Notes: generated by a model from the sequence alone, not told the origin. A stretch of 64,000 bases of DNA from Escherichia coli (GCF_048403405.1 NZ_CP183129.1), one strand, 5' to 3'; positions 31,309 to 49,456 are shown, numbered from the stretch's first letter. Program-made: numbers and translations.

Positions 31309-31671
31309 ATGTTTCTAAACTATTTCGCGTTGGGAGTGCTGATCTTCGTCTTTCTGGTGATTTTTTATGGAATCATCGCGATACATGACATCCCTTATCT
31401 GATTGCCAAAAAGCGCAACCATCCCCATGCCGACGCTATTCATACGGCGGGCTGGGTGAGCCTGTTTACTCTACATGTTATCTGGCCGTTCCTGTGGATC
31501 TGGGCGACGCTCTATCAACCGGAGCGCGGCTGGGGCATGCAGTCACATGTTGCGTCGCAAGAGAAAGCGACTGACCCGGAAATCGCCGCACTTTCTGACC
31601 GAATTTCCCGGCTGGAGCATCAACTCGCCGCCGAGAAAAAGACTGACTATTCCACGTTCCCGGAGATCTAA
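31309..31671 (+). CDS. yibI: Small inner-membrane protein (DUF3302-like)
   Basis: 120 aa, two TM helices; paralogue of the yiaW product in this window. Confidence 0.85.
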
Positions 31672-31673
31672 AT

Positions 31674-32810
31674 ATGGATCTATTGATTGTTTTAACTTAC
31701 GTGGCGCTGGCGTGGGCGGTCTTTAAAATCTTCCGCATTCCGGTGAATCAGTGGACGCTGGCGACGGCGGCGCTGGGAGGCGTGTTTCTGGTGAGTGGTT
31801 TGATTTTGTTGATGAACTACAACCACCCTTACACTTTTACCGCGCAAAAGGCAGTGATAGCGATCCCCATCACGCCACAGGTGACGGGAATTGTTACTGA
31901 AGTCACTGACAAGAATAATCAGCTTATTCAAAAGGGCGAGGTGCTTTTTAAACTCGACCCGGTTCGTTACCAGGCGCGAGTTGACAGACTTCAGGCTGAC
32001 CTGATGACGGCGACGCATAATATAAAGACGCTGCGCGCGCAGCTCTCTGAAGCGCAGGCCAACACCACCCAGGTTTCAGCGGAGCGCGACCGTCTGTTTA
32101 AAAATTATCAACGTTATCTGAAAGGCAGCCAGGCGGCGGTGAATCCGTTCTCGGAACGTGACATCGACGATGCGCGGCAAAACTTCCTCGCGCAGGACGC
32201 GCTGGTGAAAGGCTCGGTGGCGGAGCAGGCGCAGATCCAGAGCCAGCTCGACAGTATGGTTAACGGCGAGCAATCGCAGATTGTGAGCTTAAGAGCGCAA
32301 CTTACTGAAGCAAAATATAACCTTGAGCAGACTGTCATTCGCGCGCCGAGCAATGGCTACGTTACTCAGGTACTGATCCGCCCAGGTACATACGCAGCTG
32401 CCTTGCCGTTGCGTCCGGTGATGGTTTTCATCCCCGAGCAAAAACGGCAAATTGTCGCCCAATTTCGGCAAAACTCGCTGTTACGTCTGAAACCCGGCGA
32501 TGATGCGGAAGTGGTGTTTAACGCGCTACCTGGGCAGGTGTTCCACGGCAAACTGACTAGCATTTTACCTGTCGTGCCAGGCGGTTCTTATCAGGCGCAG
32601 GGGGTATTGCAATCATTAACGGTCGTGCCCGGCACGGACGGTGTGCTGGGAACCATTGAACTGGACCCTAACGATGATATCGATGCCTTACCCGACGGCA
32701 TCTACGCCCAGGTGGCGGTTTACTCCGACCATTTCAGCCATGTTTCGGTGATGCGGAAAGTGCTGCTAAGAATGACCAGCTGGATGCATTATCTTTATTT
32801 GGATCATTGA
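31674..32810 (+). CDS. yibH: HlyD-family membrane-fusion-like protein
   Basis: 378 aa; N-terminal TM helix, coiled coil, beta-barrel region; 3 bp after yibI; paralogue of yiaV. Confidence 0.85.
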
Positions 32811-33267
32811 GGGGGGCGGGGGAGATTATGGAACTTTGCTCCCTGCAAGGACTAATTATTTTTGCATATTATTTCATCGGCTGTGATGATTTTTCGTTAA
32901 TATCCATTATGTTAAGAAGTTCGGGATGAGTGTGAACTCATTGGATTTTTTATCCGTCTTGATCTGCCGAAGGATCAGACTATACATTGTCGAGATCGCA
33001 ATGATGATATGAGTTGTTCCTCTGCCACGGCTCTAATCAAAAAAGAGCAGGAGTGCTTTTCCATCTATTGCGATGATGGCTTTATTATCTGAAGGATGAC
33101 AGTCACATTTAAAAATATTTAATTTATAGATCACAATGTAGGTTCATGTAATATATGTATACAACTATTTTTCTCTTCACTTTTAATTATCGTATTCATT
33201 ATAACACTAAGTTAAAAAAACTCCTGGAGAGTGAGTTATTAATATGTTTTTAAATATAATTAAGTTA

Positions 33268-33789
33268 TTATTCATCGATGCATTTTATAGAATCATCAAT
33301 GGCTACAATAGTACTATTAACTCTCCAATTTATATTTTTATTATCATTGCAAATATTAACTGAATCTATATCAATGATTTTTTTATTTTTATCTTTTATT
33401 TTGTTTACAGTTTCAATGCAATCAGCGACAAGTTGGTGTGGATTTAGATTCTTCAGATATGGTCTTATGATCTTTCCCTTGCTTAATAAATAGCATGTAT
33501 AGGATTCGGAAAGTCCAGCATCTATTTTGTACATCATTATTCTAGATAAGGATGTGAGAAATGCCTTGTTATCATTAGCAGCCATATATGCCAGTCCGAG
33601 TTCAGCCTCTGCGGCTTTACATGAAAAATAGCTAAGTGAACACGCTTTTCGTCCCTCTTGGGTACTGGCTGATATTAGTGCCCATAATATTGCCTTGTCT
33701 GCCAAATCCAACTCTCTCTGAAATTGGTTTACAGTAACTGCATTCGCAGAAATAGAGAAGAAAAGCACAATTGTTAATAACCTTGTCAT
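33268..33789 (-). CDS. Exported Cys-containing protein of unknown function (candidate orphan immunity protein)
   Basis: 173 aa; signal peptide with likely cleavage after ANA; 7 Cys; very AT-rich gene between the Rhs module and yibH. Confidence 0.5.
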   Translation of the reverse strand: MTRLLTIVLFFSISANAVTVNQFQRELDLADKAILWALISASTQEGRKACSLSYFSCKAAEAELGLAYMAANDNKAFLTSLSRIMMYKIDAGLSESYTCYLLSKGKIIRPYLKNLNPHQLVADCIETVNKIKDKNKKIIDIDSVNICNDNKNINWRVNSTIVAIDDSIKCIDE

Positions 33790-34157
33790 ATTTCTAGTCC
33801 GTCACTGTTAATGTGCTATCTGGCTCTGAAAATATTAGCTCATTTAATTTTTGCATGTCATTAGATGAACCAGTTATACAACCCTCGGAACAGAATCGAG
33901 GTCCTAAAGATGGACCAAAAGCGTTTAAACAACTATGTGTTAAAAATCCATCACGATTATACGTTTCTGTATTTGCTGACGGTACTAAACGTATACCATT
34001 AGGTTTTCTATTGGTTGCTCCAGGACTGTTAAGCAAGCCTCGTCCGGTTTGCTTCATTGAGTTCTCCACTTTAGACTATTGGACTATCTTTCAACATGGC
34101 ATCGCCTTAGTATACCGCTGGTTTTCCGCTCATTGTTAATTTTCTCTTTCGTTCATT

Positions 34158-34568
34158 TCACTTAATTTTCAGTTTTTTCCAAAAGTCAATATTCCCTTCT
34201 AATAAAATTTTTTCTATGGAATCTTCATTAATTTTATTATTAGAGCATATGACATTATCTTGAACGCCATATGACACCACCCCGTTTTTATCAATATAAT
34301 ATCTGTCTTTACCATCAATAATATAAATCCTAACATTTTTATCATCAAAATGGTAACACTCATTACTAGACCTGTTCAGTAACATTAATAACTTCTCACG
34401 ATTTATCTGTAATAATTTTTGTGCACCATCTTTTATTGCAAAATTTTCAATTTTACTTTTAGTGACAGGGGAATATGTTTGGATGCGAAAAGGCATCCTA
34501 TAATGGAAAACATCAGCTATACAGCAAGATGAAAAAAATACGGAAATAAAATACAGACATACTTTCAT
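34158..34568 (-). CDS. Putative exported immunity protein cognate to the Rhs C-terminal toxin
   Basis: 136 aa; hydrophobic N-terminus MKVCLYFISVFFSSCC; starts 57 bp after the rhs stop, same strand, with GGAG RBS; AT-rich like the rhs tip. Confidence 0.55.
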   Translation of the reverse strand: MKVCLYFISVFFSSCCIADVFHYRMPFRIQTYSPVTKSKIENFAIKDGAQKLLQINREKLLMLLNRSSNECYHFDDKNVRIYIIDGKDRYYIDKNGVVSYGVQDNVICSNNKINEDSIEKILLEGNIDFWKKLKIK

Positions 34569-47502: not shown

Positions 47503-47664
47503 CTGAAACTGTCCAGGTTTTGGGGTTCAGTTCATACACGCCGCATCCGGCATAAACAAAGCGCACGTTGTTACAATTTACGTTTTAAACCTACGTGCGC
47601 AATAACCCAATAACCCAGACTACGCCAACAGAAGTGCGTTTCTGGGGCGTGTTTTGCCAGGAGT

Positions 47665-47877
47665 TTAATCTCGCGTTTCGATGGTGAGCGGGCGAACCAG
47701 ACCATAAATCACCATTGGCGTTCCGAGGCCAATCAGCAATAAACGGTAGATAATTGAAGGTTTAATACGCTTAATCTGTACTGTGGATGTTTTACTGGAG
47801 TTATTCATTAGTTTGGCCAATAGTTCCATTATTTCAATATGATAAGCCTCGCACTGTTGAAAAGCCAGGCTGCACAT
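47665..47877 (-). CDS. Hypothetical small protein, possibly spurious
   Basis: 70-aa ORF with hydrophobic C-terminal half between IS copy A and yiaW; no recognisable family. Confidence 0.2.
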   Translation of the reverse strand: MCSLAFQQCEAYHIEIMELLAKLMNNSSKTSTVQIKRIKPSIIYRLLLIGLGTPMVIYGLVRPLTIETRD

Positions 47878-47990
47878 TTCAGAAAGTATATAAAAAACAA
47901 TATGTCGTTATATAAATAAGGAAATTGCACCGCATTATGGTATTTCATAATATGCGTTAATTGTTCTTTTCTATATTCTCTGAGGGAAAT

Positions 47991-48314
47991 ATGTTCCTGG
48001 ATTATTTTGCATTGGGAGTGCTTATTTTTGTATTTCTGGTGATATTCTATGGGATTATTATTTTACATGATGTTCCCTACCTGATTGCTAAAAAACGTAA
48101 TCATCCACATGCCGACGCCATTCATGTTGCTGGTTGGGTAAGTCTTTTTACGTTACATGTTATCTGGCCATTTTTGTGGATTTGGGCCACGCTTTACCGC
48201 CCGGAGCGGGGATGGGGAATGCAAAACCATGACTCCTCCGTTGTGCAACTACAACAGCGTATTGCCGGGCTGGAGAAACAGCTCGCCGACATCAAATCCT
48301 CTTCTGCCGAGTAA
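47991..48314 (+). CDS. yiaW: Small inner-membrane protein (DUF3302-like)
   Basis: Start trimmed to [13 protein letters not shown] (107 aa) with GAGGG RBS; paralogue of yibI. Confidence 0.85.
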
Positions 48315-48319
48315 TACTT

Positions 48320-49456
48320 ATGGATTTACTGATTATTTTAACCTATGTGGCTTTCGCATGGGCAATGTTTAAGATCTTCAAAATTCCTGTAAATAAATGG
48401 ACCATTCCCACAGCGGCCCTGGGTGGCATATTTATTGTCAGCGGTTTAATTCTGTTAATGAACTATAACCATCCGTATACCTTTAAAGCGCAAAAAGCGG
48501 TTATTTCTATTCCTGTTGTCCCACAGGTGACAGGCGTGGTGATCGAAGTGACGGACAAGAAAAATACGCTGATTAAAAAAGGTGAGGTGCTATTTCGACT
48601 GGACCCGACGCGTTATCAGGCGCGGGTGGATCGGCTGATGGCGGATATCGTTACCGCAGAACATAAACAGCGGGCGTTGGGCGCAGAGTTAGATGAGATG
48701 GCGGCGAATACTCAGCAGGCAAAGGCCACGCGGGATAAATTCGCTAAAGAGTATCAGCGTTACGCACGCGGCAGTCAGGCGAAAGTAAACCCGTTTTCAG
48801 AACGTGATATCGATGTGGCGCGGCAAAATTATCTGGCACAGGAAGCCTCCGTAAAATCAGCGGCGGCGGAACAAAAACAGATCCTGAGCCAGCTGGATAG
48901 CCTGGTGTTGGGTGAACATTCTCAAATCGCCAGCCTGAAAGCACAGCTCGCGGAAGCAAAATATAACCTTGAGCAGACGATAGTGCGTGCGCCGAGCGAT
49001 GGTTATGTGACCCAGGTACTGATTCGTCCGGGTACCTATGCCGCGTCGCTGCCGCTACGTCCGGTGATGGTGTTTATACCCGATCAGAAACGACAAATCG
49101 TGGCGCAGTTCCGTCAGAACTCCTTGCTGCGACTGGCTCCTGGCGACGATGCGGAAGTGGTGTTTAATGCTCTGCCAGGTAAGGTATTCAGCGGTAAGCT
49201 GGCAGCCATTAGTCCAGCCGTTCCCGGCGGAGCTTATCAGTCGACCGGCACCTTACAGACGTTAAACACAGCGCCGGGTTCAGATGGCGTTATCGCGACC
49301 ATTGAACTGGATGAGCATACTGATTTGAGCGCATTACCAGACGGTATTTACGCCCAGGTGGCGGTCTACTCTGATCATTTCAGCCATGTCTCGGTGATGC
49401 GCAAAGTACTGTTACGCATGACCAGCTGGGTGCATTACCTTTATCTCGATCATTAA
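48320..49456 (+). CDS. yiaV: HlyD-family membrane-fusion-like protein
   Basis: 378 aa; collinear paralogue of yibH with identical N- and C-terminal stretches. Confidence 0.85.

What the first reader, a model, noticed from the sequence alone, without database searches (positions are those of the whole stretch)
31309..49456. Two paralogous small-membrane-protein + HlyD-like modules (yibI-yibH and yiaW-yiaV) 16 kb apart
The products of 31309-31671 and 47991-48314 share long identical stretches (for example [52 protein letters not shown]). The following 378-aa proteins are collinear paralogues with identical ends (MDLLI... and ...[18 protein letters not shown]). Neither pair has a cognate ABC/RND/MFS pump or outer-membrane channel nearby, so these are free-standing two-component envelope modules of unknown function, duplicated on either side of the rhs/sel region. 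One copy is under the CRP-rich mtl divergent promoter; the other lies next to a LysR regulator and a MipA-family outer-membrane protein.
Basis: seen in the sequence. Interest (0 to 1): 0.4.

Follow-up and report, generated by a model that had tools for sequence, protein, structure and literature searches.

The report
Paired small-protein/adaptor envelope modules, pump-less
The two gene pairs are the known but uncharacterised E. coli genes yibI-yibH and yiaW-yiaV, ancient intact paralogues. In other bacteria the same pair sits in one operon with its own outer-membrane channel but never with a pump, which suggests a cell-envelope conduit built without any known transporter.

Summary
The window is E. 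coli chromosome, and the four ORFs are yibI/yibH and yiaW/yiaV. The small proteins (DUF3302) are 73% identical. The 378-aa HlyD-type adaptors are 77% identical with no gaps. Synonymous sites are saturated and dN is about 0.18, so these are old paralogues under purifying selection, not pseudogenes. The genes are annotated but of unknown function.

What I add:
- About 160 DUF3302 genes from Alpha-, Beta- and Gammaproteobacteria and metagenomes were examined. Nearly all are followed within -4 to +5 nt by an adaptor of one special subfamily.
- That subfamily has an EmrA/AaeA-like fold, an extra conserved N-terminal membrane helix and a conserved basic C-terminal helix.
- In seven independent lineages a dedicated NodT-type outer-membrane factor lies in the same operon. 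No ABC, RND or FUSC pump lay in or beside any operon examined; the one MFS domain seen is the LplT part of an LplT-Aas fusion next to L077/L078.
- A reverse test from the outer-membrane factor recovered DUF3302 plus adaptor in 3 of 3 cases.

The pair is probably the inner part of a tripartite conduit whose inner-membrane partner is the DUF3302 protein. The link of yiaWV to yiaU/yiaT is only positional. Substrate and energy source remain unknown.

The parts
31309..31671 (+). yibI: 120-aa DUF3302 protein. It has two predicted membrane helices joined by the highly conserved loop [20 protein letters not shown], then a variable linker and a short C-terminal coiled-coil helix.
   Evidence: ORF and translation. 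Pfam PF11742 scores 140 bits against a cutoff of 32. RefSeq annotation. Family alignments A1 and A2.
31674..32810 (+). yibH: 378-aa periplasmic adaptor (membrane fusion protein) of EmrA/AaeA type. It starts 2 nt after the yibI stop. Predicted elements: N-terminal two-helix membrane hairpin (residues 2-19 and 26-50), lipoyl domain, alpha-hairpin (97-152 and 161-218), beta-barrel, C-terminal basic helix (355-371). There is no membrane-proximal domain.
   Evidence: AlphaFold2 model built with a 44-sequence alignment, mean pLDDT 82.8. Best Foldseek match is EmrA in EmrAB-TolC, TM-score 0.63-0.69. hhalign against AaeA gives probability 99.6%.
47991..48314 (+). yiaW: 107-aa DUF3302 paralogue of yibI, 73% identical. 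GC3 is low (0.45).
   Evidence: The ATG at 47991 is preceded by GAGGGA. RefSeq annotates the same start.
48320..49456 (+). yiaV: 378-aa adaptor paralogue of yibH, 77% identical and collinear. It starts 5 nt after the yiaW stop, and its 3' end overlaps the convergent yiaU by 4 nt.
   Evidence: Listed as TCDB 8.A.1.1.4 and 'uncharacterized' in PMC10971958.
30916..31092 (.). Cluster of four CRP-consensus sites in the 536-bp mtlA-yibI divergent intergenic region. This is possible but unproven regulatory input to yibIH.
   Evidence: three perfect sites and one with a single mismatch, and no other perfect site in the window. The mtlA/yibI region is the top CRP prediction in PhyloScan, PMC1794230.

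Best explanation
yibI-yibH and yiaW-yiaV are two ancient, intact copies of a conserved two-gene module. The module consists of a small two-helix inner-membrane protein (DUF3302) and, translationally coupled to it, a specialised periplasmic adaptor of the EmrA/AaeA class.

Proposed mechanism:
- The adaptor oligomerises, by analogy with the EmrA hexamer, into a periplasmic tube. It is anchored by its own N-terminal helical hairpin.
- The DUF3302 protein is its dedicated inner-membrane partner and takes the place that an ABC, RND, MFS or FUSC transporter has in all characterised adaptor-dependent systems.
- The tube docks onto an outer-membrane factor. This is a dedicated NodT-type lipoprotein where one is encoded in the operon. 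In Enterobacterales, where that gene is missing, it is presumably TolC or another resident channel.
- The result would be an envelope-spanning conduit for a still unknown periplasmic or membrane-derived substrate.

Shown here: the paralogy, the purifying selection, the near-obligate pairing, the fold, the subfamily signatures, and the recurrent operon link to a dedicated outer-membrane factor without a pump.

Inferred: physical complex formation, hexameric state, use of TolC in E. coli, the direction of transport, and the energy source. Conserved His/Asp residues at or in the DUF3302 membrane helices are a candidate proton relay, which is speculative.
For: 1. Pairing. Of 166 DUF3302 genes collected, 162 have readable downstream sequence. 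Of these, 158 have an intact adaptor and 2 have a frameshifted adaptor directly downstream. Most gaps are -4 to +5 nt. Only 2 DUF3302 genes stand alone (raw data).
2. Adaptor subfamily. A conserved N-terminal motif is present in 111 of 114 unique sequences and a conserved C-terminal basic-helix motif in 113 of 114 (alignment A3).
3. Fold. The AlphaFold2 model has pLDDT 82.8, and its best structural match is EmrA from the EmrAB-TolC pump. The profile match to AaeA includes the C-terminal helix.
4. Outer-membrane factor in the same operon in seven lineages and two gene orders: L003, L079/L080, L081/L082, Eleftheria terrae L170, L175, L176 and L177.
5. These outer-membrane factors form their own subfamily. 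They are 27-43% identical to each other, against 22-25% to the factor of an RND pump in the same locus.
6. Reverse test. Three of three homologues of one such factor, chosen for contig length and spread of identity, sit next to DUF3302 plus adaptor.
7. No ABC, RND or FUSC gene was found in or beside the operon in any locus examined. The only MFS domain seen is the LplT part of an LplT-Aas fusion just upstream of L077/L078. RND sets lie within about 3 kb on the opposite strand in L079 and L117.
8. A canonical R-x3-L-x6-S/T hairpin-tip motif, known from my own knowledge of MacA and AcrA as the TolC-docking signature, occurs in 7 of 9 long-class adaptors at the predicted tip, and in the short-class adaptors of L126 and L176.
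Against: - No physical interaction was tested.
- The E. coli (medium-length) adaptors lack the canonical hairpin-tip motif, and E. coli has no outer-membrane factor gene next to either pair.
- A tripartite conduit without a recognised energy-coupled transporter has no precedent, so a partner encoded elsewhere cannot be excluded.
- A SulP anion transporter follows the module in three lineages, and a Na+/H+ exchanger lies nearby in three loci, two of them from related lineages. These could be such partners.
- The topology of DUF3302 is ambiguous by the positive-inside rule: 2.8 K+R in the loop against 1.8-2.4 just after helix 2.
- Reported E. coli phenotypes are mild, and yibH has been used as a chromosomal integration site (PMC5852967).
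Confidence: 0.5

Rival explanations
1. The pairs are accessory adaptor modules for a transporter encoded elsewhere. Under this reading DUF3302 plays the role that the small protein AaeX (DUF1656) plays beside AaeA and AaeB. The real pump would be an unlinked FUSC-type protein (E. coli has orphan members such as YccS, YhfK and YeeA; this is my own knowledge and was not tested), an MFS transporter, or a SulP or cation/proton transporter.
For: - The adaptor is clearly homologous to AaeA (hhalign probability 99.6%) and EmrA, and both of these work with a pump.
- The gene order small protein then adaptor mirrors aaeX-aaeA.
- SulP follows the module in L003, L129 and Sinorhizobium.
- A Na+/H+ exchanger lies nearby in L079, L117 and L175.
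Against: - No FUSC, ABC or RND gene lies in the operon in any of about 160 loci. The only MFS domain seen is the LplT part of the LplT-Aas fusion upstream of L077/L078. An outer-membrane factor recurs in seven lineages. Systems that need a pump normally keep it in the operon in at least some lineages.
- DUF3302 shows no similarity to DUF1656/AaeX (probability 0.1) or to AaeB (probability 0.2).
- SulP and the cation/proton exchangers are not known to use adaptors, and they are absent from most loci.
Confidence: 0.3
2. In Enterobacterales the module is not a conduit to the outside. It would be an inner-membrane/periplasmic envelope-maintenance or stress device, for example one affecting lipid or permeability homeostasis, that no longer uses an outer-membrane channel.
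For: - E. coli has no linked outer-membrane factor, and its adaptors lack the canonical hairpin-tip motif.
- Lipid-related neighbours recur: a PLD-like protein (L079), an LplT-Aas fusion (L077), a patatin-like phospholipase (Eleftheria) and pqiB (Pantoea).
- The reported phenotypes are envelope-flavoured. A yiaW deletion raises Ca2+-mediated transformation efficiency (as cited in PMC12844161). A yibI deletion lowers fitness in urine and adhesion (PMC5404293). A Klebsiella yibH deletion lowers plaquing by evolved phages (PMC11796411).
Against: - The lipid-related neighbours differ in every lineage and may be chance.
- The adaptor keeps a full-length alpha-hairpin of about 55 residues per helix and the EmrA-like tube-forming architecture.
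- The short-class relative in L176, whose termini resemble the E. coli proteins, has an outer-membrane factor gene next to it.
Confidence: 0.15
3. One or both pairs are decaying, non-functional duplicates.
For: yiaWV is missing from about 30% of complete E. coli genomes. An H-NS mark is listed at its promoter (PMC3946193). yiaW has low GC3.
Against: - All four ORFs are intact. dN/dS is about 0.05 or lower with saturated dS.
- yibIH is present in 5406 of 5426 genomes.
- Orthologues of each copy are conserved in Citrobacter and other genera.
- YibI has been detected by proteomics (PMC7580552).
Confidence: 0.02

Closest known systems
AaeXAB aromatic carboxylic acid efflux system of E. coli, and the related FUSC-type systems YdhIJK, MdtNOP and FusA-E
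   Same: - The gene order is small two-helix membrane protein, then adaptor.
- The adaptor is homologous to AaeA over the whole periplasmic part, including the C-terminal basic helix (hhalign probability 99.6%, 29% identity).
- Both adaptors lack a membrane-proximal domain.
   Different: - There is no AaeB/FUSC pump gene here or in any related locus.
- The small protein is DUF3302, not DUF1656, and the two show no detectable similarity.
- The adaptor has an extra conserved N-terminal membrane helix.
- The NCBIfam AaeA model scores 75 bits against a cutoff of 400.
EmrAB-TolC MFS-type tripartite pump (PDB 8ZAL and 8ZAR; PMC13139468)
   Same: It is the best structural match to the YibH model (TM-score 0.63-0.69). 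The domain order is the same: membrane anchor, lipoyl domain, long alpha-hairpin, beta-barrel, C-terminal helix. Neither has a membrane-proximal domain. EmrA forms a hexameric tube that meets TolC tip to tip.
   Different: - There is no EmrB-like MFS partner.
- Sequence identity is only about 20%.
- The TIGR00998 EmrA/EmrK model scores 114 bits against a cutoff of 390.8.
- YibH has two N-terminal helices rather than one.
Three-gene DUF3302 / adaptor / NodT-type outer-membrane factor operons in other bacteria (Eleftheria terrae plasmid NZ_CP106952.1 and metagenomic loci L003, L079, L081/L082, L175, L176, L177). All are uncharacterised.
   Same: They carry the same DUF3302 family and the same adaptor subfamily, with the N-terminal motif M-x-LL..Y..FK.F.IP and the C-terminal motif ..RK.LLR..SW.
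   Different: - They encode a dedicated outer-membrane factor, which the E. coli pairs lack.
- Their adaptors are mostly of the short-hairpin class (313-319 aa; Eleftheria's is 389 aa), against 378 aa in E. coli.

Membership tests
DUF3302 (Pfam PF11742) | Match to the family profile above the gathering threshold | tested here: met
   YibI scores 140 bits and YiaW 146 bits, against a cutoff of 32.
Membrane fusion protein / HlyD periplasmic adaptor family (TC 8.A.1) | Profile matches to the adaptor domains (barrel-sandwich/lipoyl and beta-barrel) | tested here: met
   For YibH and YiaV respectively: CusB_dom_1 56.7 and 56.3 bits (cutoff 26.5), HlyD_D23 42.0 and 42.6 bits (cutoff 30), HlyD_3 33.5 and 27.4 bits (cutoff 22.2).
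Membrane fusion protein / HlyD periplasmic adaptor family (TC 8.A.1) | Three-dimensional architecture: membrane anchor, split lipoyl domain, coiled-coil alpha-hairpin, beta-barrel | tested here: met
   AlphaFold2 model with pLDDT 82.8. Foldseek matches EmrA, MacA, AcrA and MexA with probability 1.00.
Membrane fusion protein / HlyD periplasmic adaptor family (TC 8.A.1) | Genetic linkage to a cognate inner-membrane transporter (ABC, RND, MFS or FUSC) | tested here: not met
   None lies within about 20 kb in the window. None lies in or beside the operon in about 160 related loci, apart from the LplT-type MFS domain of the LplT-Aas fusion upstream of L077/L078.
Membrane fusion protein / HlyD periplasmic adaptor family (TC 8.A.1) | Hairpin-tip R-x3-L-x6-S motif for docking to a TolC-type channel (known from MacA and AcrA; my own knowledge) | tested here: inconclusive
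   It is absent as a strict pattern from YibH, YiaV and the medium class. It is present at the predicted tip in 7 of 9 long-class relatives and in the short-class adaptors of L126 and L176.
EmrA/EmrK subfamily (TIGR00998) and the MdtN (NF007785) and AaeA (NF007850) equivalogs | Score at or above NCBI's curated cutoff | tested here: not met
   For YibH: TIGR00998 scores 114 against 390.8, MdtN 111.5 against 376, and AaeA 75 against 400. YiaV is similar. The proteins are homologous to these families but are not members.
AaeX / DUF1656 small-protein family | Detectable sequence-profile similarity | tested here: not met
   hhalign of the DUF3302 alignment against AaeX gives probability 0.1%.
Tripartite (outer-membrane-factor dependent) envelope-spanning systems | An outer-membrane factor (OEP/TolC family) that belongs to the system | tested here: inconclusive
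   It is not encoded near either E. coli pair. It is encoded in the operon in seven related lineages, where it forms a dedicated subfamily. Use of TolC in E. coli cannot be tested with these tools.
Anti-phage defence systems (PADLOC) | Match to a defence-system protein model | tested here: not met
   There were only two weak coiled-coil hits, with E = 0.004-0.005.

The most novel reading that the evidence does not exclude
DUF3302 proteins define a new, minimal class of inner-membrane component for tripartite envelope-spanning machines. In this reading a two-helix protein, together with the adaptor's own N-terminal hairpin, replaces the ABC, RND, MFS or FUSC transporter. It forms an inner-membrane platform or gate, possibly driven by protons through its conserved His/Asp residues, beneath an EmrA-like tube and a dedicated NodT-type channel. 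E. coli would then carry two such machines, yibIH and yiaWV, that borrow TolC.
Probability: 0.3. Interest if true: 0.8.

Novelty: new variant of a known kind. Interest (0 to 1): 0.5.

Why it matters
All characterised adaptor-dependent envelope systems are built around an energy-coupled inner-membrane transporter. This is a conserved adaptor with a dedicated small membrane partner and, in many bacteria, its own outer-membrane channel, but no transporter. If it works alone, it would be a new way of building a trans-envelope conduit. It would also assign a role to four genes of the E. coli y-ome, one pair of which is core to the species (99.6% of genomes). The comparative result makes the question directly testable, because short three-gene operons such as those of Eleftheria terrae and locus L176 are ready-made constructs. 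If a remote pump is used instead, the finding still defines a distinct adaptor subfamily and a strict partner protein. Scattered phenotype reports give starting assays: fitness in urine and adhesion of uropathogenic E. coli, transformation efficiency, and phage plaquing in Klebsiella.

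Tried and rejected
- **Single-sequence AlphaFold2 of YibH.** The model was poor (pLDDT 53). It was replaced by a run with a 44-sequence alignment.
- **Genome-contig scan with a DUF3302 alignment.** It returned only Enterobacterales, because only the best 80 hits are kept. That was useful for synteny but not for distant context. Distant context came from encoding-contig look-ups, a metagenome scan and the plasmid/chromid collection.
- **PDB sequence search with YibI.** It matched only de novo designed helical proteins through the coiled-coil tail, which is meaningless.
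- **Relation of DUF3302 to AaeX/DUF1656 or to AaeB.** Rejected.
- **Weak Pfam hits of DUF3302** (DUF3810 and others, E of 0.007 or higher). Not significant.
- **PADLOC.** Nothing found.
- **Cluster look-up for organism names of distant DUF3302 proteins.** No names are held.
- **phmmer search for further outer-membrane factors in the metagenome loci.** None was found beyond the known ones. Most of those contigs are 1-3 kb, so this is uninformative.
- **Positive-inside analysis of DUF3302 topology.** Ambiguous.
- **Hairpin-tip motif as evidence for TolC docking in E. coli.** Ambiguous.
- **The idea that yiaU or yiaT belong functionally with yiaWV.** Rejected on synteny and on the YiaU regulon paper. 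Note that in E. coli the four genes are gained and lost together.
- **Promoter and terminator consensus scans.** Promoter-like counts were at chance level in both regions, and the terminator-like sites, about two to three times the shuffled mean, lay mostly inside coding sequence, so nothing usable came of them.

Full report
**Identity and check of the observation**

The window is E. coli chromosome. A 2.2-kb query around the first pair matches 5406 of 5426 complete E. coli genomes, several of them at 100%. The annotated region of strain 4621 gives this order: mtlRDA, then divergently yibI-yibH, an RHS element, yibF, selAB, yiaY, aldB, IS1397, yiaW-yiaV, convergent yiaU, yiaT, IS1397.

The small proteins are 73% identical (E = 1e-61). 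The 378-aa proteins are 77% identical over their full length with no gap.

At the DNA level the large genes are 70% identical. Synonymous differences are saturated (pS = 0.75), dN is 0.18, and the dN/dS ratio is about 0.05 or less. The DUF3302 core has dN = 0.06. These are therefore old duplicates under strong purifying selection. They are neither chance similarity nor pseudogenes.

**What the proteins are**

Pfam assigns both small proteins to DUF3302 (140 and 146 bits; cutoff 32). It assigns both large ones to HlyD/CusB-type adaptor domains. NCBIfam places the large proteins nearest the EmrA/EmrK, MdtN and AaeA models, but far below every curated cutoff.

An AlphaFold2 model of YibH built on a 44-sequence alignment reached mean pLDDT 82.8. 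It shows:
- two N-terminal helices (residues 2-19 and 26-50);
- a split lipoyl domain;
- an alpha-hairpin (97-152 and 161-218);
- a beta-barrel with one disordered loop (301-320);
- a C-terminal helix (355-371).

It has no membrane-proximal domain. Its best structural matches are EmrA chains from the EmrAB-TolC cryo-EM structures (TM-score 0.63-0.69), followed by MacA, AcrA and MexA. In that structure EmrA forms a hexameric tube. It also carries a C-terminal helix, and a beta-barrel loop that contacts the pump (PMC13139468).

A profile comparison with E. coli AaeA gives 99.6% probability and 29% identity. The match extends through the C-terminal basic helix.

The DUF3302 family shows no similarity to AaeX/DUF1656 (probability 0.1%) or to AaeB (probability 0.2%). 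It has no informative match in the PDB.

**The pair is a conserved module**

DUF3302 is a small family, with 819 representatives at the 50% clustering level. I collected loci from four sources:
- a species-level genome collection, which returned only Enterobacterales;
- metagenomes;
- look-ups of individual distant proteins;
- plasmid and chromid records.

Of 166 DUF3302 genes, 162 have readable sequence downstream. Of these, 158 have an intact adaptor ORF and 2 have a frameshifted one directly downstream. The gap is mostly -4 to +5 nt, which indicates translational coupling. Only two DUF3302 genes, in L087 and L102, stand alone.

The partner adaptors form one subfamily.
- The N-terminus is conserved (M-x-LL..Y.......FK.F.IP.N.WT), in 111 of 114 unique sequences.
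- The C-terminal basic amphipathic helix is conserved (..[IVM]R[KR].[IL]LR[MI].SW), in 113 of 114.
- The subfamily differs mainly in hairpin length: short (about 313-345 aa), medium (376-389 aa; E. coli is 378) and long (431-440 aa).

Named hosts include Sinorhizobium, Rhizobium and Agrobacterium (Alphaproteobacteria), Eleftheria terrae (Betaproteobacteria), and Vibrio, Aeromonas, Pseudoalteromonas and Pantoea (Gammaproteobacteria). The G+C content of the loci ranges from 0.30 to 0.72.

**Link to an outer-membrane factor, and absence of a pump**

In seven independent lineages an OEP/TolC-family gene lies in the same operon:
- L003: DUF3302, adaptor of 315 aa, OEP, then SulP and PPK2.
- L079/L080: PLD-like gene, DUF3302, adaptor of 316 aa, OEP.
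- L081/L082: OEP, DUF3302, adaptor of 319 aa.
- Eleftheria terrae: DUF3302, adaptor of 389 aa, TolC-family protein.
- L175, L176 and L177.

These outer-membrane factors have lipoprotein-type N-termini and are annotated as NodT family. They are 27-43% identical to each other. They are only 22-25% identical to the factor of a complete RND system in the same locus.

As a reverse test I searched with one of these factors and looked up three homologues at 49-56% identity, chosen for contig length and spread of identity. All three lie next to DUF3302 plus adaptor. In L175 the adaptor is frameshifted in a low-coverage assembly.

No ABC, RND or FUSC gene was found in or beside the operon in any locus examined. 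The only MFS domain seen is the LplT part of an LplT-Aas fusion just upstream of the module in L077/L078. Complete RND sets on the opposite strand lie within about 3 kb in L079 and L117.

The only recurrent transporter neighbours are a SulP anion transporter (L003, L129 and Sinorhizobium, twice with PPK2) and a Na+/H+ exchanger (L079, L117 and L175). Lipid-related neighbours also appear once each: a PLD-like protein, an LplT-Aas fusion, a patatin-like phospholipase and pqiB. I treat these as leads only.

**Mechanism**

The best-supported reading is that DUF3302 plus adaptor is the inner part of a tripartite conduit. An EmrA-like adaptor tube would be anchored by its own helical hairpin. It would have the DUF3302 protein as its dedicated inner-membrane partner, and it would dock onto an outer-membrane factor. 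Enterobacterales have lost the dedicated factor, so they would have to use TolC or another resident channel.

The steps that are shown and those that are inferred are listed in the Best explanation section of this report.

Weak points:
- The E. coli adaptors lack the canonical R-x3-L-x6-S hairpin-tip motif, which the long class and some short-class members have.
- DUF3302 topology is not settled by charge bias.
- No energy source is evident. The conserved H25/D26, R36, H38 and H56 of DUF3302 are candidates only.

The main rival is a pump encoded elsewhere, as in an AaeXAB-like system. It is weakened by the complete lack of such a gene in the operon across many lineages, but it is not excluded.

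**Evolution and context in E. coli**

yibIH lies next to mtlA throughout the Enterobacteriaceae. Citrobacter and Pseudocitrobacter also have yiaWV between aldB and yiaU, about 8.6 kb from yibIH with no rhs element, and Citrobacter has a third copy elsewhere. Enterobacter, Lelliottia and Leclercia have aldB directly beside yiaU-yiaT with no yiaWV. The association of yiaWV with yiaU/yiaT is therefore positional. The YiaU (LpsR) study reports yiaT and waa as targets, and the passages read do not mention yiaWV (PMC9068703).

Within E. coli, yiaWV is present in 3804 of 5426 genomes and yiaU-yiaT in 3783, so the four genes vary as a block. yiaW has low GC3 (0.45), and an H-NS mark is listed at the yiaWV promoter (PMC3946193).

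The mtlA-yibI spacer holds the only perfect CRP consensus sites in the window. It is the top CRP prediction in PhyloScan (PMC1794230). Control of yibI by CRP remains untested.

**Literature**

The y-ome review lists yibH and yibI among uncharacterised genes (PMC11551758), and yiaV is tabulated as an uncharacterised MFP-family protein (TC 8.A.1.1.4) (PMC10971958). Reported observations are these:
- yibI is induced in urine in uropathogenic E. coli. Its deletion gives a competitive index of 0.33 in urine and lowers adhesion (PMC5404293).
- An IS1 insertion in yiaW was found in a macrophage-adapted clone. It had no effect in the phagosome-maturation assay when reconstructed alone (PMC5495878).
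- A yiaW deletion raises Ca2+-mediated transformation efficiency, as cited in PMC12844161.
- A Klebsiella yibH deletion lowers plaquing by evolved phages (PMC11796411).
- yibH has been used as a chromosomal integration site in MG1655 (PMC5852967).
- YibI has been detected by proteomics (PMC7580552).

None of these defines a function.

**Verdict**

The added comparative evidence turns an "orphan adaptor pair" into a defined, widespread module with a dedicated outer-membrane partner and no transporter. This is a new variant of the tripartite-system theme that can be tested directly. Interest is moderate, at 0.5. It would be high if DUF3302 proves to be the sole inner-membrane component.

Noticed in passing
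window 46101-47536 and 51360-52795: Two 1436-bp copies of IS1397 (IS3 family) lie in inverted orientation and are 100% complementary. They bracket a 3823-bp segment that carries a small hypothetical ORF, yiaW, yiaV, yiaU and yiaT, which resembles a composite transposon. The same layout is annotated in strain 4621. In E. coli as a whole, yiaWV and yiaUT are present or absent together in about 70% of genomes.
   Followed up: partly
window 33268-38756 (- strand): An RHS element core protein (1376 aa) with downstream small ORFs, including an Imm57-family immunity protein, lies between yibH and yibF. Citrobacter has the same flanking genes without this element, so it is an insertion.
   Followed up: partly
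window 47665-47808 (- strand): A 47-aa hydrophobic ORF lies between IS1397 and yiaW. RefSeq annotates it as a hypothetical protein (WP_001066082.1 in strain 4621). Its function is unknown.
   Followed up: no
L003 3018-8067; L167 (Sinorhizobium sp. B11 p1) 6001-10163; L129 7007-10224: A SulP-family anion transporter directly follows the DUF3302-adaptor(-OMF) genes in three divergent lineages. In two of them it is followed by polyphosphate kinase 2. This could be a functional link, or a candidate inner-membrane partner.
   Followed up: partly
L079 7321-8892; L077 5460-8897; L170 9045-11234; L174 3754-5406: Different lipid-related genes lie next to the module in different bacteria: a PLD-like protein, an LplT-Aas fusion, a patatin-like phospholipase and pqiB. 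This may be chance, or a hint of a lipid-related substrate.
   Followed up: no
L175 9136-9738 and L176 7540-8205: A DUF3313 gene lies close to the outer-membrane factor of the three-gene operon in two loci. In L177 an Omp85-family gene follows the operon.
   Followed up: no
L061 and L063 (Citrobacter sp. MGH106 and Citrobacter sp. Awk 4): Some Citrobacter species carry a third DUF3302-adaptor pair at another locus, followed by a different LysR-type gene that is 31-33% identical to YiaU.
   Followed up: no
L166 (E. coli strain 2018-02-2CC): In this reduced genome IS1 elements have removed yiaWVUT and neighbouring genes, and have disrupted yiaY, yiaA and yiaB.
   Followed up: no
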